Shown: positions 1 through 53,842, numbered from the stretch's first letter. The stretch is DNA of 64,000 bases from the human T2T-CHM13v2.0 reference genome, Homo sapiens (GCF_009914755.1 NC_060939.1); one strand, 5' to 3'. The notes: generated by a model from the sequence alone, not told the origin. Program-made: numbers and translations.

Positions 1-821
1 ATACACATACATATGCACCTATGTTTATATACGTATATGTATACACATACATATGCACCTATGTTTATATACGTATATGTATACACATACATATGCACCT
101 GTTTATATACGTATATGTATACACATATGCACCTGTTTATATACGTATATGTATACACATACATATGCACCTATGTTTATATACGTATATGTATACACAT
201 ACATATGTACCTGTTTACGTATATGTATACACATACATATGTACCTATGTTTATATATGTATATGTATACACATGTGTATATATTTATACACACATGTTT
301 GTATATTTATACACATGTATAGATTTACACACACATATGTATGTATATATTTATACATATGTGTATATACATATGTATGTATATACACACATATGTATAT
401 ATACATATGTGTATGTACGTATATACACATATGTATATATTTATATACATATATGTACATATATTTACATACATATGTGTAGATATTTACATACATATAT
501 ATATATTTACATACATATGTATATGTATTTATATACATGTGTGTATATATTTATATATACACATATATGTATATGTATTTATATACATATATGTATATAT
601 ACATACATGTATGTATTTATATATGTATACGTATATGTATATATTTATATACATACATGTATATATTTATATATGTATACATATGTGTATATATACGTAT
701 ATGTACATATACGTATATAGACATATACATATGTACATGTATATATACATATACATATACATATACATATGTATATGTAAATGTGTATATACATATGTAT
801 GTGTATACATATATAAATATA

Positions 822-854
<33 letters not shown>

Positions 855-860
855 CTATAT
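1..860. repeat. AT-rich minisatellite (~40-bp unit atacacatacatatgcacctatgtttatatacgtatatgt) decaying into (TA/CA/TG)n microsatellite
   Basis: Unit repeats at 1, 41, 81 and onward with internal deletions to ~270, then degenerate tatata/catata sequence. Truncated by the window start. Confidence 0.95.
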
Positions 861-1339
861 AGACAAAAGAGTACCTTTGAAGGCTTTGGAAGGTGAAACC
901 TAGTCAATGGCTTCATTGGAGCACATACCTACATTTCTGATTGCTCCCCCCCCAGCCAAAAATATTGATTAGCTATGATTTCACGTTTAAACAGGGCAAT
1001 AGAGAAAATGGAAATGTTTTCTAGTTTCAAAAAACTTGTCTCCCTGGAGTGTCAAGCTTCATCTTCATGAAAAGATTATTAGTGGTAACCTCTTCGGAGC
1101 AGAGAGGATTTTAAAGGCAGATGAGGTCTGTGTAGGCTGAGAGTGGGGAGGAAAAATGTGACTTGAGTCTGGAAGAATGGGAGGGACTGGCAAAGGCTTG
1201 GGGAGAGGTCGTCACTTTTATCTCTGTTCCTCTCACATTGTGTAGCCTCTTGGAACTTTGCTGAAGGACCCTTTGCAATGCTACACATATTAGGAATGGA
1301 CACTGAAACCGTCACCTACAGGAAATGAGGTGTCAGAGA

Positions 1340-18210: not shown

Positions 18211-18376
18211 CAGACTCATGACTTTATAGTAGAAAATAGACTCATGACTTCATAGTAGAATATAGACTCGTGACTTTGTGTCCATAAACCTGTTTAGTAA
18301 GCAGAGAAGGATGCATTATCCACTTTGGTTTTCGGCTGAATAGTGAATGGGCATTGTGTCTTCTGAGAGATACATA

Positions 18377-19740: not shown

Positions 19741-22169
19741 CTACTTGAAATGTCAGTCATTGATAAGATAATATGTATTTAAGGTATTTAATATAGGTTG
19801 GCACATAAGCCCTCAAGTGTAAACTATTAACTCACTCAGTTACTTATATGTAACTTGTTTTTAGCCATCTTAAGAATTTGATTATGCACACCAACAAAAA
19901 CAAAAGAAGGGGAGGAATTAGAGTAGAGGATACTCATGTATGAAAAGATCAAGCTGAGGTAATATTAGAACAAACTAGGAGGTTTGGAAGATATAAACTC
20001 TCAATTTGGTCCTGAGTTCTGACCAGTCCCAATAAGGAAAGCCTGATTCTCACTATCTTTTAAATAAAGGATTTTTTTTTTCAGAGAGCACACATCTATT
20101 TCTGGAACTGAATAATTATTTTTTCCTTGTTATAGGGCACTTTGATGTGCGTATGCCTGTTGTGCTGATTTGTGATATGTTTGTGTATACATGTGTGTCT
20201 CATTACACTCAGAATCTTGGAGATTTGGCTTCAGTTTACTTAACTTCCATATCCAGGCCTACCTATGAGGCAATAACTCTGCCAAGGACTCCTGCTTTTG
20301 ATGATGGGATTGCCAGGACACTTGACTCTACAAGAACTCTGCGTTTGCCCTTCCTCTGATTTTATCATGAGTCACTTATACTAACTCTAAGTGCAGAAAA
20401 AGGCAACAGGGGTTATATGAAAATGGTAATGGCAGACAGAGGCAGACGAAGGGACTGAGTTCAGTGTACTTTGTCCAAGGGGTCACGTGGACTTGGACAT
20501 TGTGGCTGGGACCTTAAAGCCAAGGTCTCCATGCTTTTGGTTCATGGCACTCTATTATTAAATATTTCAAAGTATATACTCCATGTGTATGCACTTACTT
20601 ACTTGTAGATTATATATACATAGTTCAGAGTTTATATAAGATATACACTACTGTTTGCATTGAGATATTAAATAGCTTATATAAGATGTACACCACTGTT
20701 TGCGTTGAGATATTAAAAGAAGGATGACTGTTCTAAAAGTAGATCATAGAGATATTGTGTAACTCAATAACTTTAATAAATATTATTCAGTTGTACATTT
20801 AAAATGGGTAAATTGTATATTATATAAATTATCTTAATGAAGCCTTTTTAAAAAGGAAGATAAAATGAAGGCAAAATAAACAGTATATAAACATTTGAAA
20901 ACTTAGAAAGTAGAAGGCTTTTGATCTCACCCAATTTATTAATAATTAAATCCTTATTTTTTAGCAGAAGCAATGTAATTAAACATGTCATCAACATTTT
21001 TAATCATTTCATTTCAGAAAGCTCACGCTGGGAGTGTAATTACCACAATTTCAGTATTTTCGTCTGTGTTTTGACTATTGTCTTCAGTCCATAGTTGCTT
21101 TGCAAGATTCTTTTTTAGTAAGACAAGATCACATCTTTAAATCTCTGTAGCTAGCTGTGCTGTACACATACACGTGCATGCGTGTGCGCGCACACACACA
21201 CACACACGTGCTCTACAGTCTCAATATGCACACATGGATGATCCTGAGAGTGTGTGGCCTGGGGTCTGTGTTGCTGCACTGTGATCATTACATTCTTGCA
21301 TCAGAGCAGCTCCAAATAGCTTGTGAGTCACTGATCTATGGATTATGTGAGGGGGCCACAGCCTCTTCCATTTCCTGGTGCTGCATTATTCATTAGCACT
21401 TTTACTATGTGAATTGCATGCAAATATTTTTTTGACTCGTTTGTATTTTTATTATTATAATTATTTGTCTGTCTCCTCCTCCAAGATATATGCTTCAGAA
21501 GGTCAGGAACTCAGTCTGTTTTGTTCACTGTTGCATTCTCAGCACTTTGACTAGCTCTTGGCACAAATTCTTGGCTCAATAAATATTGCCAAATAAGTAA
21601 ATCAATTTGTGTATTAAATTTTAGTAACAACACATTTTCCTTCATTTTAAAAATGAAAATAAATACACGCTGAAGTTCAGATATTTTCTCCCTGCCCACA
21701 CTGAGGTACCAACACTCAATTTTGGAGACCATTGCTGTAGTTGGGCGGTAGGTGAACAGCAGAGAAGGAAACGAAGGGTATCAGAGGCAAGGCAGAGAGC
21801 CCATAGAGAATGTGTTTCACTGAAAGGCCAGACTCACTTTTCTGGCTTTTGACATTTGGATCAGACCCACCTTACCCGTCTTGCCATATAAAAGGAAAGC
21901 AATGAAGAGTTGAGTCAGAAAATGAAGCAGATAAATGTAAAACTTGGTTCAGAACAATGTAAAACATTTTTGCAATTTTGTGCAACAGGGCTGCTGGTGA
22001 TGTTTGAGGGACTTGGAAGACATTTAAGAGTGGCACTGTGACCTGTGACCTGTGACTTGTTCACATTGACTGGGCTGGCGAAGACAGGAAGTATTCAAGG
22101 GAATTGCACCTATTCAGTTTGTTTTGAAGAACTGCTTTGTAATGTAACTGAAATCCAGTTGATTCAGTT

Positions 22170-23730: not shown

Positions 23731-25559
23731 TAACACCTCATTAAATACCGTCAGAACTTCTATTTCTGTATATTCATAGTATATGTTCCACACTGCCTTG
23801 CTATCCATGAATTCTTACCAGTAGATCATAAACTTCTTATGGACAGGTTTTGTGCCACTCTTATAAGAACTAGTAGATACTCAGGTAACATTTCTACATT
23901 GACTTTTTTTTTTTTTTTTTGAGGAGATAAGAGTAGAGTCAGCTCTGAGATGACTACTTTTTAAGTGATTCTTATTTTTAATCTTTTTGTATATTATTGG
24001 TAGTTTTTAGGACCTAAGGAAAGCATGTTTGCCGGATTTCCACTTCTGAATCAGGGATGGATTGATGGAATACTTTAATAACATTATTTTTAAACTATTA
24101 GCATAAGGGTTTTTTAATTGCTCCAACAATGTTAGTGTCTTCTTCACTTAGCATTATACTATTTTAATAATATTGTTTAAATGATTAGTATAAGGACTTT
24201 TTAAATTGCTCCAACAATGTTCATTTGTCTTTCACACTTAGCACTTCGTGATATTTATAAAGGGCCCATTGAAGTATCTCGTGTTGACACACTGAGGTTG
24301 GTTAGTTTGGGTTTCAAATTCTGTCAGTTTTCAAGCTCTGTTCAAGTTCACTTTTAAGCATGAATCATGAGTTACACAAATCATATAGATTTATTCTTAA
24401 AATGTTGATTATTTTAAGTCATCTTTTTCAGTAAGTGCCTTATAAAGATTTGGGCAGAGTTTCAAATTCTTCTAATATTCAGGCTTTAGGTGTAAGAATA
24501 ATTGATAGAATTTAGGGGTAAGAATAATTGATAGAATAATTGATGTTTTAGACAGATAATAGAGTAGATTTGTCTTTACAACTCCAGATATCTGGAATCA
24601 TATGTTTTCAATGATTGCCTTATGAAGATTATTGAAAACTGATATCTCAGTGTTAATTTTCAGTGTGTCTTGTATAAGCTCTCTCGTGGACAGAGCAGCT
24701 TTTATAAGGGTTAAATTTATCAGGCTCCCATATATGTGATTAGCCATTGCTGTAGACAGTTTTCTAGTATTTCATGTTAGGAAATACTCAACAAATACAT
24801 TTTAATATAACCAAGGTTCTGAAGAAGACCTTACCTCTGAATATTTTCCACAGAGCCTATTATATTCCCGAGTTCACAGAAAGTTGTTTTATTACTTCAA
24901 GGACTCTCTGGGCTCAACTCTGTAGCTAAAGAATGTTATGTTATTCTCTGGGCTTGGTAATTGTGTTCCAACTCTGATATTTAGCCGTGATACTGTTGTT
25001 TCAGAGTTTGAAGTAAGGGAAGATACCTCTAAAAAAAAGGTTCAACTCTAAAGCGTTTCACTTATCCATCTATATTGTAACATTTTTTTTCCAGTTGTCC
25101 CTTTTCTCCAAACAGAATAAAATAACAGAGGCAGGGCACAGTGGTGAGGGTATTCAGGCACCATGCTTGTGGTTCCAGCTAGTGGACGTTATGTTCCTGT
25201 TGGGGACTTTTGAAATGTATATGATGGTTTTTCTGGTCACACTGACAGGGACATTGCTGACACATAGGAGATGGGGACTATGATAGCTGCCATCTTACAG
25301 TGTACAGAACAGACCCATATGTCAAAGAATGTTTCCACCCCAAGTGCCAGAAGTACCCCCTGTTGAGCAACACTGAGATAGAGAGGCTTCAATTTCGGGC
25401 ACTGTGAGCTTGAACAGTTTGCATTTGCTTCATCTGTAAAGTTGGAGGTAAAATTACCTATTGTATAAGATCATTTTAAGGATTTCTGATGATGTATGTA
25501 AAGCAGTGAACACAGGACCAGATGCTTAGTAGGAACTAGTAGAGGAATTGTTTGACGCC

Positions 25560-26115: not shown

Positions 26116-28603
26116 GGATTAGTATTTTAAAACAGCAATGGCAAAGAAGTTGTAATTGACTGGTAACACTTGGTTGTATTACCAGTCAATCACAACAGTG
26201 TTACCAGTCAGTTACAACAGTACTTCATATGCTATTTGTGTGTATGTATGTGAGACGAGAGTGTGTGTGCATAAAAAAGTTATCCTTTCTACTAGTTACA
26301 TAGTTTTAAATCCAGATGATGGAATTAATAATTTACAGGAAACTCCCCATCTAAACAATTTTGATAAGCTTTGCAAGATATACCACACATTAGGTTGTCC
26401 AAAAATTGGATTTCTCTACTCACTGCTCTTCCAATTATATTATTCTCTCATCTCTTTTAATTGAAGGAAGCATGATACTTGTATTCTTACATGAGACTAC
26501 CTTAAGGGCATAATGATGTGATTATATTTGGGTATATGTTTTGAAATTGGTTGCAAATCTCTAGAGGTTATCAGTAAAACTACTTGTAGCATGTTAGAAT
26601 TAGTGAGTTTTCCTGTCTGCTTGGAGGAGGTGTAATTGCTCTTTGGATAGACAATAGGTGTTTGCTGTTTCTGTTAATATGGGTAGGAGCTGGGGACATG
26701 CTTTGAATGATTATGTTATGAAAGAAACTACTGGCTTGATGTTTTAGAAGCAAGAGAAAGATAAATGGTGTAATATACTTATTTGAAAGATAGGTATTTG
26801 AATTTAAATTTTCTTTCTTGCTCTTTGGTAGATGTGATGATTTCTTTAAAATATTTTGCTTTGTTTCTGAAAAATTTGTCTGGATTTTATGGCTTAAAAA
26901 TATGCACCATTTGTGAAACATATTCTTTTTCACACCAGAAATGGCTTTGGAACATATGCATAAAGTTTCTGTTGTTCTAAATTAGTGTTTCTTTTGGGCT
27001 AACCTTTCAATTACATTTACCATCCTAAAATAACTTCTTTACCTAAGTTGGACAAGATTTTGTACTGGAAATTAATACCTTTGCCTCCTACTATCCTTAT
27101 TCCGGTGATGTTCTAAAGATAGTTCAGGTGTTCTGTTTCTGCAGGTAATTATTAGACAAGGAAACCTTTAAATGTGGTGATAATGTTAGGCAGGACCTTT
27201 GAAGTTTAATGGTTGTGTTCTAATGTAGGAACTGTTTAAGAGATCCATCTGTGTGGTTTAATCTAGGGCCAATAAACTCAATTATGTGAAGAAGTGAATT
27301 GCCTTCTCTTATATTTGTATGTAATGGCTAAGACAATTTTTTTTATTGGATGGTGCTTAATTTCAAAACTTGGGTCTATACCTGGATGGCAGATAATAAC
27401 TATTCTTCTAAGGTGATCAAGGAAGTGTGTGTGGGTGTGCATGCATTGGGAGATGAGGGGTAGCAGTCCAATCAATGAGTAATTACTGATTGAACACTGT
27501 AGCCAGAGAAGCACGTGCGTTTAGCGTGAGTGTTGCGTCTGTCTACCTCTGTGATCCAGCCTCTTCTGCTCGACCTTCAGCCCAATTTTTTTTTTAGTTA
27601 TCTAATCTGTTACTTTCATTTCCTTCTTTCCCACTCTCTTCTGAACCTACTTTAGGCAGATTTTCTTCTCCATTCTCCCATCAAAACAATGCATATCAAG
27701 ATTGTCAGTAATCTTCATTTCACTAAATGGATACATTCAAGATTATTGTTACTGGATCTCCAAACAGCACTTGAGACTGTTGACCACTTCCTCTATAAAA
27801 CACCCTTCCTTTGGCTTTTCGGTTTTGGGTTCTATTTGTCATAAGATAACACCATATTTTTTTTTTCACCTCTCTGGCTATGTCTTTCTAGTTTTCTTTG
27901 CAAGTTTATGCTGCTCTAAGAAACCACTAAGTGTTGGAGTTCTTTAAGGCTAATCGTCATAGTATAAGGCTTTTATATTTTCTTGGCAATGTCATCCATT
28001 ACCATGCCTCCAATTGTCATCTGAATTGCCAATCTCTTCAACATCTTTCTCTAGATGTGCCCTCTCTCTTTGCTTCACAATCATGTGTCCAGCTGCCAAT
28101 GTGGCTTTTCCAGCTGGACTTGTGAAACACAACAAAGTCAAGACTGATCTCAGGCTATCCCTTGAAAACCTGTACTTCTCAGCGAATTACCCTAGAACTC
28201 TCTAGTAGGGCTGGACTCAATAGTGACATACCGTCTCTCATCCCCTTTAGTGAGTGCCGTTAATGCAGCAACATTGCTTTCTCAATACCTGTTGTCTTTA
28301 CTGATAGAACAAGAAGATGAACAAATCAAAAGCACATAGATCTAAACAACACAGCCAAACACCTTTCACTAAATGGCATATATAGAACCCAGCAACTGCA
28401 GAATTAACCATGTGCTGGGCCACAAAGGGAGCCTCTAATTTCAGAGGACTGAAAACATACTGATTTGCTTTCTGACTTAATCCTCAGCAATTAGGCTAGA
28501 AGTCAGTTACACAAACATAACTAGACAATCCCCATATAGAAATTAAGCACTATATTTCTAAAATCCAATATGTCATAGAATAAGATAGAAATCAGGAAAT
28601 ATA

Positions 28604-36600: not shown

Positions 36601-38931
36601 TCTTGAAGACAACATGCAGTTGGGTCTTTCTTCTTTATCCAACTTGCCACTCTGGGTCTTTTAAGTGGGGTATTTAGCTTATTTACATTCAAGGTTAATA
36701 TTGATATATACAGGTTTGATCTTGTTGTTGTGATGTTCACTGTTTGTTATATAGTCTTGACTGTGCAGTTGTTTTATAGTGTCAGTGTGCTATGTACTTC
36801 AGTATATTTTTTTGATGGCCAGTAACAGTCTTTCATTTCCATGTTTAGCATTCCCATAAGGACCTCTTATAAGGCTGGTCTAGTGGTAACATATTCCCCT
36901 AGCATTTCTTGTCTGAAAAGGATTTTATATCTCCTTCAGTTTTGAAGCTTAGTTTGGCTGGATATGACATTCTTGGTTGGAATTATTTTTTTTTCATATA
37001 CTGAATATAGGCCCGCAATTATTTCTACTGAAAGGCCCATCTTTGCCTGATGGGATTCCCTTTGTATATGACCTGCCCCTTCTCTCTAGCTGCCTTTAAG
37101 AATTTTTCTTTTGCAATGATTTCAAAGAATCTGAAGACTCTATACCTTGGTGAAAGTCATCTTGTATAGTATCTTGCAGGGGTTCTATGAATTTCCTGAG
37201 TTTGCAGGTTGACCTCTTTAGTGAGGTCTGGGAATTTTCATGGATAATATTCTTATATCCTCAAATATGTTTTCCCAGTTGCTTTCTAACTCTGTGTCTT
37301 TCAGGAATGCCAGTGAGTGATAGGTGTAGTCTTCTACATAATCCCATATTTCTTTGAGGTTTTGTTTATTTTTTAAAATTCTCTTTTCTTTATCTTTGTC
37401 TGCCTGCGTTGATTCAAATAAGTTGTTTTTGAATTCTGAGATTCTTTTCTCAGCTTTCTCTCTTCTGTTAGTAATGCTTCCAATTGCAATCCAATTTCTG
37501 TCATGAGTGATTCATTTCCAGAAGTTCAGTTGATTCTTTTGTAAAATGATTATGACATCTTTCAGCTCCTGGGCCGTTTTACTGTTTTCCTTGGATTGAA
37601 TTTCAGCCTTCTCCTATATCTTGACGAGTGAGCTTCCTTGCTGTCTGGATTCTGAATTCTATGTCTGTCATTTCAGCCATTTTAGTCTGGTTAAGCATCA
37701 TTGCTGGAGAGCTAGTGTGGTCATTTGGAGGTCAGAAGATACTCTGGCTTTTAGAGTTGCCAGAGATCTTGCACTAGTTCTTTCTCATCTGTATGGGCTG
37801 ATGTTCCTTTAATCTTTTAAGTCACTGTCTTTTTGATGGGGCTTTTTGCTTTTATACTCTTTGATCCCCTTGAGGGTTTGACTGTAGTGCAAATTAGGTT
37901 TAGCCAACTGGCTTCATTTTTGGATGCTTTCAGGGAGGCAAGGCTCAGTTTAGCACTCCTGGCCTGCATGCCCTTATCATTGGGGGCTGGAAACAGGCCA
38001 GCAGCTTGGTTCTCTGGCCCCTCAAGGTTAAGCACCTGCTGTGCTGGAGGAGCTGAAGTGTTCACAGTCCCCTAGCAGCAACACTCTGATGGGGGCTGCC
38101 AATAAAAGTGATCCAGTGGGGCGGTGGTGTGTCGTTATATGTGTGTGCACTGGTGAGGCAGTGGGAGGAGGCTGTGGGTGGGTGCACCAGGCAGAAGAAG
38201 GCTGTGGGTGGGTGCACACCGGCAGAGGTCTTTCTGCAAAAGTACTCTGACAGGTAGGTGGGGTCTGCTGTTGAAAAACCTATGGCAGTGGCTGCTTGTA
38301 AATGCTTTGGCTGGGCAGCTGAGGCTGCGCTGTAAGTTGTGTGGCCAGGCAGGGACCCTGGGAGAGGCCAGCAGACAGGTGGAACACTCAGATCAGATTG
38401 TTCCTGTCCCATAGCAAGACATCCTTGCTCTGTCGGGGTCCAGCAGCTAACAAAGGCTAATGCTGCCTAGAGGAGTATGCCAAGCCTTGGGGGGTGGGCT
38501 TTCATGGCCATGCTCCATGGCAGATAGTCCCATGCCAACCCCCCTTGGCTTTGCACAGGCTGGAGTTCTGTCTCTGCTAACTATCTGGGAAGATCTCCCT
38601 GCCACCTTAAATATCTGGGGGGGTTGTGGGATATCCTGCAGCTGGGATCTCAAAGGTCTATGGTGAAAGTGGACCACTCCATGCCTATTTCATTCACCCC
38701 TTTCCTAGGAGCTGTTTGGGGCCAGGAATGAGTCTTACTGCTTGGCAACCCCATGTAGAGTTCCCAGCTTCTTACCTTTCAGCCTGGGGTCTACATCCTC
38801 CCTCTGTCCCCTCTCAATACCTTCTTTCTGAAGATCTGTTCAGAATATGCCAGTCTAATTGATAGTCTTGTCTCTCTTAGTGGCAGAAGCTATTCCTGGC
38901 TGCATTTAGTTGGCCATCTTGGCTGGTCCCC
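33692..38931 (-). mobile_element. Near full-length, internally deleted primate L1 (L1PA15-17-like)
   Basis: 5' end gggaccagccaagatggccaact (minus strand, at 38930). ORF1/ORF2 remnants: ISILTLNVNKLNTPLKR..CCLQETHL endonuclease, [21 protein letters not shown]. 3'UTR at 33710-34010. TSD accttgag(g/t)attt at 33679-33691 and 38932-38944. Confidence 0.9.
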
Positions 38932-47146: not shown

Positions 47147-48667
47147 TTAGCCACCACCTTAAGAAAATAAAAAAAGTAAGACCAAATTAAACCTAAATCA
47201 AGAAGAGAGAAATAAATCATAAAGACAAGAGTAGAAATGTATGATACTGAAATAGTAAAACAATGAAAATTAAAAACCCAAATCTGGTTCTTTGAAAAAT
47301 AATCCATAAAATTGATAAACCTCTAGCACTATACTTACTGGAGAAAGATTGGATGCTTTCTAAGACTGAGGGGGAAAAAAAAGAATATGCATTCTCACTA
47401 ATACTATTCACTATCTTATTTGAAGTCTTAGTCCAATAAGGCAAGAAAAAGAAAAGGCATAGCATATGGAGAGGAAGAAATAAAAATACCCAACGTGATT
47501 TTCTATGAAGAAGACCTAAAGGAATATAATAAAAGCAATACGTAAATGTAGGAAGTTACAGGATACAAAGCCAATATAAAAAAATTCAATTGTATATGTT
47601 TATGCTGAAAATACACAATTGGAAACAAAAATGAAAAGCCATTTACAATAGCTTCAACAAAAATGAAATACAAATCAACCTAATAAAACATGTACTGGGT
47701 ATGTGAGCTAAAACTGGAGAATGCTGATGAAAGAAACGAAGGAAGACCTAGATAAATGAAGAGACCTGCCATGTGCTTGTATTGGAGACTAAACATAGTA
47801 AATATGTCAGCACTCTCCAAACTGCTCTATTTATTGAAAACAATACCAATCAAAATGTTGCAGTATCTTTTTAATCGAGAGTAACTCATTCTAAAATTTA
47901 TATAGAAATACAAAAATCTGGAATAGCTAAACAAATTTGGAGAGGTCACACTACCCAATTAAAAGACTATCATCCTTCAGCAATCAAAATGGTATTGGAA
48001 TAGTTACATAGATCAATGGAAAGGAATAATGAGTCAAGGTTATCTACTACACAGATGTAGCAGAGATTTTTGATGAAAGTACAAGAGCAATTCAGTGGAG
48101 ATATTACAGTCTTTTAAAACAATGACATTGGAAAAAATTATTCACATGTAAAAAATGAACCTTAAACTAAATATAACACTATACAAAAGTTAAATAAATT
48201 ATAAATCTAAATATAAAATGTAAAACTATATTACTATTAGAAAACATGGGAGAAAACCTTTGTTAATTGGGATTAGACAAGGAGTTCTTACACATGACAC
48301 CAAAAGTATATAACATAAAATTTTAAAAAATGGCTTGTTAGACTATATCAAAATTAAAAACTTTTACTGTGCAAAAGGCACTACTAAGAATGAGAAGACA
48401 AGCTACAAAGTAGGGGAAATATTTGTGAACTCTGTGTTCAACAAAGGACTAATACCCAAAATATTTAAAGAACTCTCATAACTCAACAATAAGAAAACCC
48501 AATTTCTAAAAATTGTGTAAAAGTCTTGAATAGACAGCTTATCAAAGTAGATAAAAAGACAGGAAATGCATAGAAAGGTTTTCAACATCACACGTTATTA
48601 GGAAAATGAAAATTAAAAACCCAGATGTTGATAATACTGGGTTTTTCAGTATTATCAACTGAAAGGA

Positions 48668-48772
48668 CTTGGCCCCAGAGGGCCGGCCTTACTCCAGGCC
48701 ACGGTCTTCCTACACCTCGGTGCCCAGCAGTCTGTCCACTGCAGGGATCTTTCCCAAGAGCAGCAGTAGCTC
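48668..48772 (+). repeat. 105-bp direct copy of MCTP2 coding sequence 53557-53661, embedded in L1
   Basis: 103/105 identical, ungapped, by manual alignment. Confidence 0.97.
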
Positions 48773-50049
48773 ATACACATACCTATTAGAATGGCTATGC
48801 ACATACCTATTAGAATGGCTAAAATTAAAAGTCCTGATGGTACTAAGTCCTCAGTAGGATATAGACAACTGGAATTCTCATAATTGTGGGCGGGAATGCA
48901 AATTGGTCTGTTAAAGTCTGGCAAAGAGTTATCAGGTTCTTTATAAAGTTAAACATTCATTTATCATATGACCCAGCAATCTCACTCTTTGGCATTTATC
49001 CCAGAGAAATGAGAACATATATTCGTACACAAAAAACCTGTACACAAATGATTATAGCAACTTTATTTGTAAGAATTCCAAATTGGAAACAACCCAAATG
49101 TCCTTCAAGGGGTAAATAGATTAATTGTGGTACATCCACACAATAGACTACTACTGTCAGCAACAAAAAGTTCAACTACTGACATGTGCAGCAACTGGAT
49201 GAATCTCAAAGGTAACGTGCTGAGTGAAAGAAGCCTGTCTCTAAAAGTTATATACTGTGTGATTCCGTTTAGAAAACATTCCCCGAAAGACAAAATGATA
49301 GTGATAGAGAATAGAACGGTGGTTTGCAGAGGAAGGAAGTGGGGGCCTGGGAGCGCGTGATCCTTTGGGGATAGACAGACCCCTCTGTGTCCCGATTGTG
49401 ATGGTGTAAACACAAATCTGTAAATGTGTTAACATTATAGAACTGTGCACCAAAAGTGAGAAAAAAGCCAATTTTGTTTTAGAATGATTTCAAAAATAAA
49501 GTTGAAAAAGTCATTTCTTAACAAAACAAAGATGGTGAAACTGGTGGTTCCAGTGTCCAGGGGTTAGGTATATCCCTGCTTTCTACTTGAATTTCTCTTG
49601 AATATATTATAATGTACCAGTAATACGTGCATTCCTACCAGCTTCACCCCCTCAAATAAAGGAGACTGACTCCTGGCACAGGACAGTGTAGTGCATGGAG
49701 AAGATAAACATTTTTCCACTTAGACACATTCTTTAGAGATGCAACTTTGTTTACAGCAACTCCTTTTCTCATTTTCTTGGAGATGTTTTTGGTTTGCTTA
49801 GATACACAGATTACAAACCTCTTCATTTCATAAGAGGCTGATTCCCATTCCCAGTCTCCCTTCCAAATAGGAGATTTCCCTCAAAGGGGAATGTAAGCCT
49901 CTCCCCTAGGATTCCTAAGCTTTGATCTGCACAGTAACACCAGGGAGATTGGTTGGAAGGCAGATTCTTGGGACTCACGTTCATCTCCTGTGGTGGAGCC
50001 CAGGACTGTCTACTTTTATTTATATTTATTTATTTTGAAACTTTTTTCT

Positions 50050-53377: not shown

Positions 53378-53842
53378 ATGGATCTGGATAAACCATCTGT
53401 TTGGGGCTCATTAAAACAGCGGACCAGGCCATTGTTGATCAACTTGAGCAAGAAGAAGGTGAAAAAGAACCCAAGTAAGCCCCCAGATCTACGGGCAAGG
53501 CATCACTTGGACCGCCGTCTCAGCCTCTCTGTGCCTGATCTCCTGGAGGCTGAGGCCTTGGCCCCAGAGGGCCGGCCTTACTCCGGGCCACAGTCTTCCT
53601 ACACCTCGGTGCCCAGCAGTCTGTCCACTGCAGGGATCTTTCCCAAGAGCAGCAGTAGCTCCTTGAAACAGTCTGAAGAAGAATTGGATTGGAGCCAGGA
53701 AGAAGCCAGTCACCTCCATGTGGTGGAAACAGACTCAGAGGAGGCCTATGCCTCTCCTGCTGAGCGGAGACGGGTGTCCAGCAACGGCATCTTTGATCTT
53801 CAGAAAACTTCCCTTGGAGGGGATGCACCAGAAGAGCCAGAG
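53378..53842 (+). CDS. MCTP2: MCTP2 (multiple C2 and transmembrane domain-containing protein 2), first coding exon, codons 1-155; exon 53313-53842 including 65 nt of 5'UTR
   Basis: Translation [74 protein letters not shown]...GGDAPEEPE recognised as the MCTP2 N-terminus. Strong Kozak gccATGg. Long polypyrimidine tract ending ttttatAG (53311-53312). Phase-0 donor GAG|GTGAGA at 53842/53843; 465 nt = 155 codons. Confidence 0.96.

What the first reader, a model, noticed from the sequence alone, without database searches (positions are those of the whole stretch)
48615..48821. Three interlocked fold-backs and a 22-bp tandem duplication bracket the exon copy
Seen at the left junction: aaaaacccag (48615-48624) pairs with ctgggttttt (48637-48646). 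gttgataatactg (48627-48639) pairs with cagtattatcaac (48647-48659), a perfect 13-bp stem with a 7-nt loop. tttcagt (48644-48650) pairs with actgaaa (48658-48664). At the right junction, cacatacctattagaatggcta occurs twice (48776-48797, 48800-48821). Inference: serial snap-back synthesis, a jump to the exon, then re-annealing with local duplication. The repair path can be reconstructed step by step and is typical of Pol theta or MMBIR.
Basis: partly seen in the sequence, partly recalled or inferred. Interest (0 to 1): 0.7.

Follow-up and report, generated by a model that had tools for sequence, protein, structure and literature searches.

The report
Repair scar carrying an exon fragment
About 160 bases were patched into an old LINE repeat in an MCTP2 intron, apparently in one error-prone repair event: short fold-back copies, a 109-base copy of a nearby MCTP2 exon, and a 24-base duplication; it is a clean example of a known kind of mutation.

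Summary
Three perfect, interlocked inverted repeats (10, 13 and 7 bp) lie at 48615-48664. A possible fourth (10 of 11) lies at 48579-89/48624-34. They end exactly where a 109-bp, 97% copy of the MCTP2 coding exon begins (48664-48772 = 53553-53661, same strand, 4.9 kb downstream). Three bases after the copy ends there is a 24-bp-period tandem duplication, with a 22-bp exact core. Its duplicated segment starts at the very column where the host L1M-type repeat was interrupted. None of 30 related repeat copies carries the filler or the duplication, and the filler is unique in the genome. The best reading is one complex, multi-step template-switching insertion, of the alt-EJ/Pol theta or MMBIR kind. 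I date it roughly 3-40 million years old. The full path cannot be reconstructed step by step: one switch has no microhomology and the ancestral sequence is unknown. The enzyme cannot be named either, since a 109-nt tract is long for Pol theta. This is a known kind of event, of modest interest.

The parts
48566..48623 (+). Left part of the host interspersed repeat.
   Evidence: nhmmer with a profile of 30 genomic copies places columns 10-67 here, E = 8e-8. The family gave 7151 first-look candidates in the genome. Pfam did not confirm a LINE domain.
48624..48639 (+). Ambiguous 16 nt. Either the diverged continuation of the host repeat (columns 68-80) or a first fold-back tract, since 48624-34 is the inverted copy of 48579-89 at 10 of 11.
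   Evidence: Fit to columns 67-80 beats all but 0.96% of 5000 shuffles, but other placements on the profile score as high. An inverted pair of this quality occurs at 65 of 56700 background positions.
48637..48646 (+). Fold-back tract 1, an exact inverted copy of 48615-48624. Its first 2-3 nt (CT or CTG) overlap the preceding stretch, which is possible priming microhomology.
48647..48659 (+). Fold-back tract 2, an exact inverted copy of 48627-48639 (13 nt, 7-nt loop). It has 0 nt of microhomology with tract 1.
48658..48664 (+). Fold-back tract 3, an exact inverted copy of 48644-48650. That template spans the junction of tracts 1 and 2. The tract overlaps tract 2 by 2 nt (AC).
   Evidence: A 7-mer inverted match with loop 3-20 occurs at 152 of 56700 background positions.
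48664..48772 (+). 109-bp direct copy of part of the MCTP2 coding exon.
   Evidence: 106 of 109 identical to 53553-53661. The whole genome holds only this copy and the exon.
48773..48775 (+). 3 nt (ATA) with no assured template. They pair with ATG at 48797-99 if the repeat unit is taken as 24 nt.
   Evidence: (D1)
48776..48797 (+). Extra copy of the first 22 nt of the right part of the host repeat.
   Evidence: Exact match to 48800-21. nhmmer places 48777-97 on columns 81-101.
48798..48799 (+). 2 nt (TG) between the two 22-nt copies. They are the same two bases as 48638-39 at the left junction.
48800..48859 (+). Right part of the host repeat, resuming at profile column 81.
   Evidence: nhmmer places 48801-48859 on columns 81-139, E = 1e-8.
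53553..53661 (+). Donor: part of the first coding exon of MCTP2 (codons about 59-95). It is still in place.
   Evidence: and the annotation supplied with the finding (coding 53378-53842).

Best explanation
A single break or collapsed replication fork hit an old LINE-type repeat in an MCTP2 intron, between family columns 80 and 81. It was mended by repeated rounds of priming, short synthesis and release.

Proposed sequence of steps:
1. The free 3' end folded back on itself three times, perhaps four. Each time it copied 5-13 nt of the sequence just behind it in reverse complement (48637-46, 48647-59, 48658-64, perhaps 48624-34).
2. It then primed in trans on the MCTP2 exon 4.9 kb downstream on the same or the sister chromatid and copied 109 nt in direct orientation.
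3. It primed on the other side of the break and copied 22-24 nt, came off, re-annealed at the start of that same stretch, and was sealed. This left a 24-bp tandem duplication.

The net result is about 160 bp inserted with little or no loss of host sequence.

Shown: the copies, their templates, their exact abutment and their rarity. Inferred: that it was one event, the order of steps, DNA rather than RNA as the exon template, and the enzymes. The short tracts fit Pol theta-type end joining. The 109-nt long-range tract fits MMBIR/FoSTeS-type switching better. I cannot separate the two, and a hybrid is possible.

The event is old. Three differences in 109 bp suggest roughly 3-40 million years, using a recalled neutral rate of about 1e-9 per site per year.
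For: - Templates. Each fold-back tract is an exact inverted copy of sequence 7-12 nt upstream (34 nt for the possible fourth). The 30-nt filler 48637-66 occurs nowhere else in the genome at up to 3 mismatches.
- Rarity. 36 of 41 bases are covered by inverted matches against a maximum of 33 in 8114 background windows. 0 of 3000 local shuffles have two >=10-bp stems.
- Self-templating. The template of tract 3 (48644-50) spans the junction of tracts 1 and 2, so tract 3 was copied from newly made sequence.
- Coupling on the left. Tract 3 ends on 48664, the first base of exon homology. A 7-mer fold-back ends at any given position in only 152 of 56700 cases.
- Coupling on the right. Both 22-nt copies begin one base before profile column 81. 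The left flank of the host repeat aligns up to column 67 with certainty and probably to column 80.
- Not a family feature. 0 of 30 related repeat copies have the filler or the duplication.
- Age agreement. 0 of 30 mismatches in the three perfect stems, 1 of 24 in the duplication and 3 of 109 in the exon copy, against 75-79% identity among copies of the host family.
- Donor retained, and only two copies genome-wide.
- Precedent. Pol theta alternates snap-back, in-trans and untemplated synthesis, with a median insertion of 7 bp, and in-trans copying gives short duplications (PMC4912351, passages). MMBIR-linked insertions are inverted copies >=10 bp of templates within 100 bp, can be multi-templated and occur as germline variants (PMC8421209, passages). 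Fold-back insertions at breaks, most under 14 bp, are documented in PMC11724301 (abstract, sections 15 and 22).
Against: - The switch from tract 1 to tract 2 has 0 nt of microhomology. With a 7-nt loop made of tract 1 itself it cannot be a simple primed snap-back; it needs untemplated bases or a template in trans.
- The exon-to-repeat junction also has 0 nt of microhomology, plus 3 unassigned bases.
- The 109-nt tract is longer than the roughly 30 nt given as typical for POLQ (PMC11724301, Discussion).
- Two-copy tandem duplications of this size are common, 6 in 64 kb, so the duplication could be separate.
- Whether 48624-39 is host repeat or filler is unresolved.
- An 11-mer at 48657-67 also matches 46048-58, though the flanks do not extend.
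- No outgroup sequence was available, so 'one event' rests on abutment and similar age, not on an observed empty site.
- Pfam did not confirm that the host repeat is a LINE.
Confidence: 0.7

Rival explanations
1. The same single-event repair, but the 109-nt patch was copied from MCTP2 RNA (nascent pre-mRNA or mRNA) rather than from DNA. This would be a class 2 templated sequence insertion made by a reverse-transcribing repair polymerase or by LINE-1 ORF2p acting at a break.
For: The donor is exonic and sense-oriented. The insertion site lies inside the MCTP2 transcription unit according to the annotation supplied with the finding. There is no poly(A) and no target-site duplication of 5 bp or more, and the junctions carry filler and little microhomology. 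These are the features listed for class 2 insertions (PMC5110952, passages). A 2025 paper reports transcript-templated break repair in human cells (PMC12065846; search listing and start of abstract only).
Against: The fragment lies within one exon, so no splice junction can show an RNA origin. A donor only 4.9 kb away on the same strand is what proximity-driven DNA template switching predicts. Class 2 donors are described as distant regions (PMC5110952).
Confidence: 0.12
2. A free DNA fragment from the exon region, for example a displaced flap or replication by-product of about 100 nt, was captured at the break by end joining. The fold-backs and the duplication were made by end processing in the same repair.
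For: The exon-to-repeat junction has 0 nt of microhomology and 3 stray bases. In yeast, distant templated insertions at breaks rise when flap nucleases or RPA are deficient (PMC11724301, abstract and Discussion).
Against: The left exon junction is seamless, with a 1-nt overlap and a possible CTGA microhomeology, which fits priming better than ligation. The mechanism has not been shown in the human germline.
Confidence: 0.1
3. Independent events. An exon-fragment insertion, later short-range template-switch mutations that made the hairpins, and an unrelated slippage duplication happen to lie side by side.
For: Short template-switch mutations that create perfect inverted repeats are frequent in ape genomes (PMC5453318, passages; PMC7954356, listing only). 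Small tandem duplications are common, 6 in 64 kb. A similar hairpin-plus-duplication site exists at 26149-26219 without any exon fragment.
Against: The boundaries coincide to the base on both sides. From the base rates, the chance that an independent hairpin cluster and an independent duplication both abut a 109-bp insert is below about 1e-5 (my rough estimate). A single four-point template switch copies one contiguous fragment, whereas here the inverted tracts are interleaved and out of order.
Confidence: 0.08

Closest known systems
MMBIR-linked templated insertions (MMB-TI; Osia et al. 2021, PMC8421209, passages read)
   Same: Inverted copies of 10 bp or more taken from templates within 100 bp. 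Junction microhomology at most switches. Multi-template complex events occur and are found as germline variants.
   Different: This case also holds a 109-bp direct copy from 4.9 kb away and a direct duplication. Two of its junctions have no microhomology.
Pol theta-mediated end joining with templated insertions (Kent et al. 2016, PMC4912351, passages read; SD-MMEJ papers PMC2943611 and PMC5728401 seen in the search listing only)
   Same: Alternation of snap-back (in cis) and in-trans copying with possible untemplated bases. Tract lengths of 5-13 nt are close to the reported median of 7 bp. In-trans copying gives short duplications.
   Different: The 109-nt tract from 4.9 kb away exceeds the roughly 30 nt stated as typical for POLQ (PMC11724301). 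POLQ dependence cannot be tested on a fixed ancient allele.
Short-range template-switch mutations, four-point model (Loytynoja and Goldman 2017, PMC5453318, passages read)
   Same: A one-step origin of perfect inverted repeats and hairpins in primate genomes without selection.
   Different: One four-point event copies one contiguous reverse-complement fragment. Here there are three or four fragments in interleaved order, plus a non-local insert.
Class 2 templated sequence insertions (Onozawa and Aplan review 2016, PMC5110952, passages read)
   Same: A patch of transcribed sequence inserted at a break, with no poly(A) and no target-site duplication, end-joining features at the junctions, and the donor retained.
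   Different: Donors are described as distant regions and the template as RNA. Here the donor is 4.9 kb away in cis and an RNA origin is untestable.
Fold-back inversions at breaks in yeast (Yu et al. 2024, PMC11724301; abstract and sections 15 and 22 read)
   Same: Very short inverted duplications primed at microhomology next to the break, followed by capture of the other end by end joining.
   Different: The yeast events are single fold-backs. Here there are several in series, combined with a distant templated tract.

Membership tests
Templated insertion at a break or fork (general) | The inserted bases are copies of sequence present elsewhere, and the donor is retained. | tested here: met
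   The exon donor 53553-61 is intact. The fold-back and duplication templates are all present next to the insert.
MMB-TI (MMBSearch definition, PMC8421209) | Insertion of 10 bp or more that is an inverted copy (80% identity or more) of a template within 100 bp. | tested here: met
   The 10-nt and 13-nt tracts are 100% identical to templates 12 and 7 nt away.
MMB-TI (MMBSearch definition, PMC8421209) | Microhomology at the switch junctions. | tested here: inconclusive
   Overlaps are 2-3, 0, 2 and 1 nt at the four left junctions and 0 at the exon-to-repeat junction. The ancestral sequence needed for exact counts is not available.
Pol theta-mediated end joining | Templated tracts are short (stated as up to about 30 nt) and taken from the break's flanks. 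| tested here: inconclusive
   Met by the fold-back tracts (5-13 nt) and the 22-24-nt duplication. Not met by the 109-nt tract from 4.9 kb away.
Pol theta-mediated end joining | Dependence on POLQ. | not testable with these tools
Class 1 templated sequence insertion (LINE-1 ORF2p-mediated) | Target-site duplication of 5 bp or more flanking the insert, a poly(A) tail, and a TTTT/A target. | tested here: not met
   There is no poly(A) after 48772. The only bases shared between the two insert borders are TG. The break lies at ...ATACT(G)/(C)ACATACC.
Class 2 templated sequence insertion | No target-site duplication or poly(A), and end-joining features at the junctions. | tested here: met
Class 2 templated sequence insertion | Patch derived from RNA of a distant locus. 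| not testable with these tools
   The fragment lies within a single exon, so there is no splice junction, and the donor is only 4.9 kb away.
Single four-point template-switch mutation | One contiguous reverse-complement fragment explains the whole cluster. | tested here: not met
   The inverted tracts are copies of 48615-24 and then 48627-39, which is reversed order for a single fold-back, and their arms interleave.
Known structured RNA | A match to an Rfam family. | tested here: not met
   0 matches at E <= 1 in 48300-49100 on both strands.

The most novel reading that the evidence does not exclude
The 109-nt patch was reverse-transcribed from the MCTP2 transcript being made across the broken intron itself. 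That would make this a fixed germline fossil of transcript-templated break repair in cis, combined with Pol theta-style snap-back synthesis.
Probability: 0.12. Interest if true: 0.55.

Novelty: new member of a known kind. Interest (0 to 1): 0.25.

Why it matters
This is a tidy natural example of how one faulty repair can create three things at once: a perfect hairpin, a small duplication, and a displaced piece of coding sequence. Such multi-part scars are easily misread as several mutations or as selected structure. The exon fragment also serves as a dated snapshot of MCTP2. It keeps a CpG (CGG) where the gene now has CAG at codon 72, which suggests an Arg-to-Gln change in the gene after the copy was made. 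Nothing found here points to a function for the insert.

Tried and rejected
- Another source for the filler. A whole-genome pattern search with up to 3 mismatches found only the site itself. An 11-mer match at 46048-58 does not extend and is within chance.
- 48627-39 copied from the repeat's own downstream part (48833-45). Only 8 of 13 match, so I did not adopt this.
- Assigning 48624-38 firmly to the host repeat. The a-priori placement is better than 99% of shuffles, but other placements on the profile score as high, so it stays open.
- Protein-level confirmation of the host repeat. Three stop-free pieces gave no Pfam family; the only row was KH_SLS1_1 at E = 0.06, below its cut-off.
- Structured RNA. 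No Rfam match. The 13-14-bp stem is too short for a microRNA precursor (my judgement).
- LINE-1-mediated insertion (class 1). Rejected, because there is no poly(A) and no target-site duplication.
- Outgroup or empty-site test. Not possible: the genome tool states that this genome has no relatives here, and the other collections hold phages, plasmids and prokaryotes.
- Earlier findings of this scan.
- Literature on this locus. A search for MCTP2 together with 'templated' found 6 papers, and all 6 are unrelated by title and abstract start. In the wider search, the 8 listed of 1,194 papers did not mention MCTP2. Other wordings were not searched.

Full report
**What is there**

- 48615-24 is the exact reverse complement of 48637-46 (10 bp).
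- 48627-39 is the exact reverse complement of 48647-59 (13 bp, 7-nt loop).
- 48644-50 is the exact reverse complement of 48658-64 (7 bp).
- The arms interleave rather than nest, so 'interlocked' is a fair word.
- The repeat finder adds a fourth pair, 48579-89 with 48624-34, at 10 of 11 (I10).
- On the right, 48776-97 equals 48800-21 exactly. The true period is 24 (TRF: 1.9 copies, 100% matches). As 24-nt units, 48773-96 and 48797-820 match at 23 of 24.

**The exon copy**

A blastn of the region against the window shows that 48664-48772 is 97.2% identical (106 of 109) to 53553-53661, on the same strand and 4.9 kb downstream (alignment). According to the annotation supplied with the finding, that stretch lies in the first coding exon of MCTP2 (coding 53378-53842). 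A search of the whole assembly with 48600-48830 found four places:
- the site itself;
- the exon;
- two 30-nt matches to other copies of the host repeat.

So there is no third copy and no processed pseudogene that could be the source. Homology stops sharply on both sides, and the flanks of copy and donor are unrelated.

**The host sequence**

The flanks belong to an old, highly repeated family. A 341-nt piece of a related copy gave 7151 first-look candidates, of which 40 were scored, at 75-79% identity. Pfam did not confirm this on three stop-free pieces.

I aligned 30 copies (L004 and L007-L035) with the two window flanks. Five loci were left out:
- L001, L002 and L005, which are the window's own places;
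- L006, which is the same place as L004;
- L003, which matched only in part.

None of the 30 has the filler or the duplication. A profile built from them places 48566-48623 on columns 10-67 and 48801-48859 on columns 81-139. The extra copy 48777-97 falls on columns 81-101.

The 15 bases 48624-38 fit the missing columns 67-80 better than all but 0.96% of 5000 shuffles. However, scanning the whole profile finds equal or better placements elsewhere. The same bases are also the 10-of-11 inverted copy of 48579-89. Either the host repeat runs on to about 48638 and nothing was lost, or 13 columns were replaced by a further fold-back tract. I cannot decide between these without an ancestral sequence.

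**More than chance?**

- Outside the two simple-repeat blocks, 57 kb of the window holds 5 perfect hairpins with stem >=10 and loop 3-20, and 2 of them are here. Block-wise dinucleotide shuffles give a mean of 1.85. For stems >=13 the shuffles give 0.075 against 1 observed.
- Of 3000 shuffles of the local 400 bp, 2 had a 13-bp stem and none had two 10-bp stems.
- 36 of the 41 bases 48624-48664 are covered by exact inverted matches of 7 nt or more to sequence at most 60 nt upstream. None of 8114 background windows reaches this; the maximum is 33, at 26179.
- The 30-nt filler 48637-66 occurs once in the genome at up to 3 mismatches.
- The tandem duplication alone is not rare. Six two-copy duplications of period 20-45 lie in complex sequence in this window.

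**Are the parts one event?**

Three arguments say yes.
1. Abutment. The last inverted tract ends on 48664, which is also the first base of exon homology. A 7-mer fold-back ends at a given base in only 152 of 56700 positions. The duplicated segment begins one base before column 81, the column at which the host repeat resumes.
2. Self-reference. The template of the third tract (48644-50) spans the junction of the first two tracts, so it was copied from freshly made sequence. That is what serial synthesis on the growing end predicts.
3. Age. The three perfect fold-back stems have 0 mismatches in 30 pairs, the duplication 1 in 24 and the exon copy 3 in 109. Copies of the host family differ by 21-25%.

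Against this, the age figures are small numbers and small duplications are common. I had no outgroup either: the genome tool says this genome has no relatives here.

**Junction by junction**

| Junction | Microhomology or unassigned bases |
|---|---|
| Host repeat to tract 1 | 2-3 nt overlap (CT or CTG) |
| Tract 1 to tract 2 | 0 nt. The 7-nt loop is tract 1 itself, so a simple primed snap-back is not possible; untemplated bases or a template in trans are needed |
| Tract 2 to tract 3 | 2 nt (AC) |
| Tract 3 to exon | 1 nt (A), or CTGA if a 2-nt gap is allowed; the fourth copied base is a mismatch (A for C) |
| Exon to host repeat | 0 nt, plus 3 unassigned bases (ATA) |
| Between the two 22-nt copies | TG, the same two bases as 48638-39 |

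The path is therefore only partly reconstructable. The mirror-image order, with synthesis from the right end on the other strand, gives the same product.

**Mechanism**

The short inverted tracts taken from the immediate flank match several described processes:
- Pol theta, which alternates snap-back, in-trans and untemplated synthesis, with a median insertion of 7 bp, and whose in-trans copying gives short duplications (PMC4912351, passages);
- MMBIR-linked templated insertions: inverted copies of 10 bp or more from within 100 bp, sometimes multi-templated, present as germline variants (PMC8421209, passages);
- fold-back insertions at yeast breaks (PMC11724301, abstract and sections 15 and 22).

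The last paper states that POLQ alone mostly makes tracts of up to about 30 nt. By that measure the 109-nt tract from 4.9 kb away fits long-range microhomology-mediated template switching better. Short-range template-switch mutations also create perfect hairpins in one step in ape genomes (PMC5453318, passages). One such event copies a single contiguous fragment, which is not the case here. I conclude that this was one complex template-switching repair or replication event, and that the enzymes cannot be named from sequence.

**RNA or DNA template**

The patch lies within one exon, so there is no splice junction to test. There is no poly(A) and no target-site duplication of 5 bp or more, which rules out the LINE-1-mediated class 1 insertion. 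It leaves the class 2, break-repair type described in PMC5110952 (passages). The nearby cis donor favours DNA, but RNA is not excluded.

**Age and a by-product**

The three differences between copy and donor are as follows.

| Copy position | Donor position | Copy / donor base | Context |
|---|---|---|---|
| 48667 | 53556 | A / C | 4th base of the copy |
| 48696 | 53585 | A / G | CpG lost in the copy |
| 48703 | 53592 | G / A | CpG kept in the copy and lost in the gene |

Divergence is d = 0.0275, with an exact 95% interval of 0.0057-0.080. With a recalled neutral rate of about 1e-9 per site per year and two lineages, this gives about 14 million years, range roughly 3-40. The event would be older if the exon evolves more slowly than neutral. 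The third difference implies that MCTP2 codon 72 was CGG (Arg) when copied and is now CAG (Gln). This is an inference from CpG decay and was not checked in other species.

**Function**

There is no Rfam match and no annotated exon at the site. A 64-codon open frame runs through the patch (48663-48857), but nothing suggests it is used. As single-stranded DNA the site folds into the 13-14-bp hairpin at -11.2 kcal/mol.

**Verdict**

The event is a new instance of a known kind, and I found no paper linking MCTP2 with templated insertions.

Noticed in passing
window 26149-26219: A second small complex rearrangement. A 22-nt arm (26149-70) is inverted against two tandem copies, 26176-97 (90%) and 26197-218 (95%). 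That is a hairpin whose right arm is tandemly doubled, with no foreign insert. It was the top background window in the inverted-coverage scan, at 33 of 41.
   Followed up: partly
window 53590-53592 (MCTP2 codon 72) vs 48701-48703: The intronic copy keeps CGG where the gene has CAG. By CpG-decay logic the gene changed from Arg to Gln after the copy was made. Conversely, codon 70 is GGG in the gene and AGG in the copy, where the CpG was lost in the copy.
   Followed up: partly
window 48663-48857 (+): A 64-codon stop-free frame runs through the exon copy in the MCTP2 reading frame and on through both duplicated units. There is no sign that it is expressed.
   Followed up: no
window about 48000-49400: This stretch belongs to a very abundant old interspersed repeat family (7151 first-look candidates). 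It is not among the stretches listed as masked in the annotation note supplied with the finding.
   Followed up: no
window 1-865: A complex TA/CA-rich satellite-like block with nested periods of 16-112 nt, rich in perfect hairpins. It accounts for most of the 55 perfect hairpins in the window.
   Followed up: no
window 18212-18277, 20632-20717, 24485-24537, 38169-38226: Further two-copy tandem duplications of 26-45 bp at 90-96% identity in otherwise complex sequence. They served as the base rate for the 24-bp duplication.
   Followed up: no
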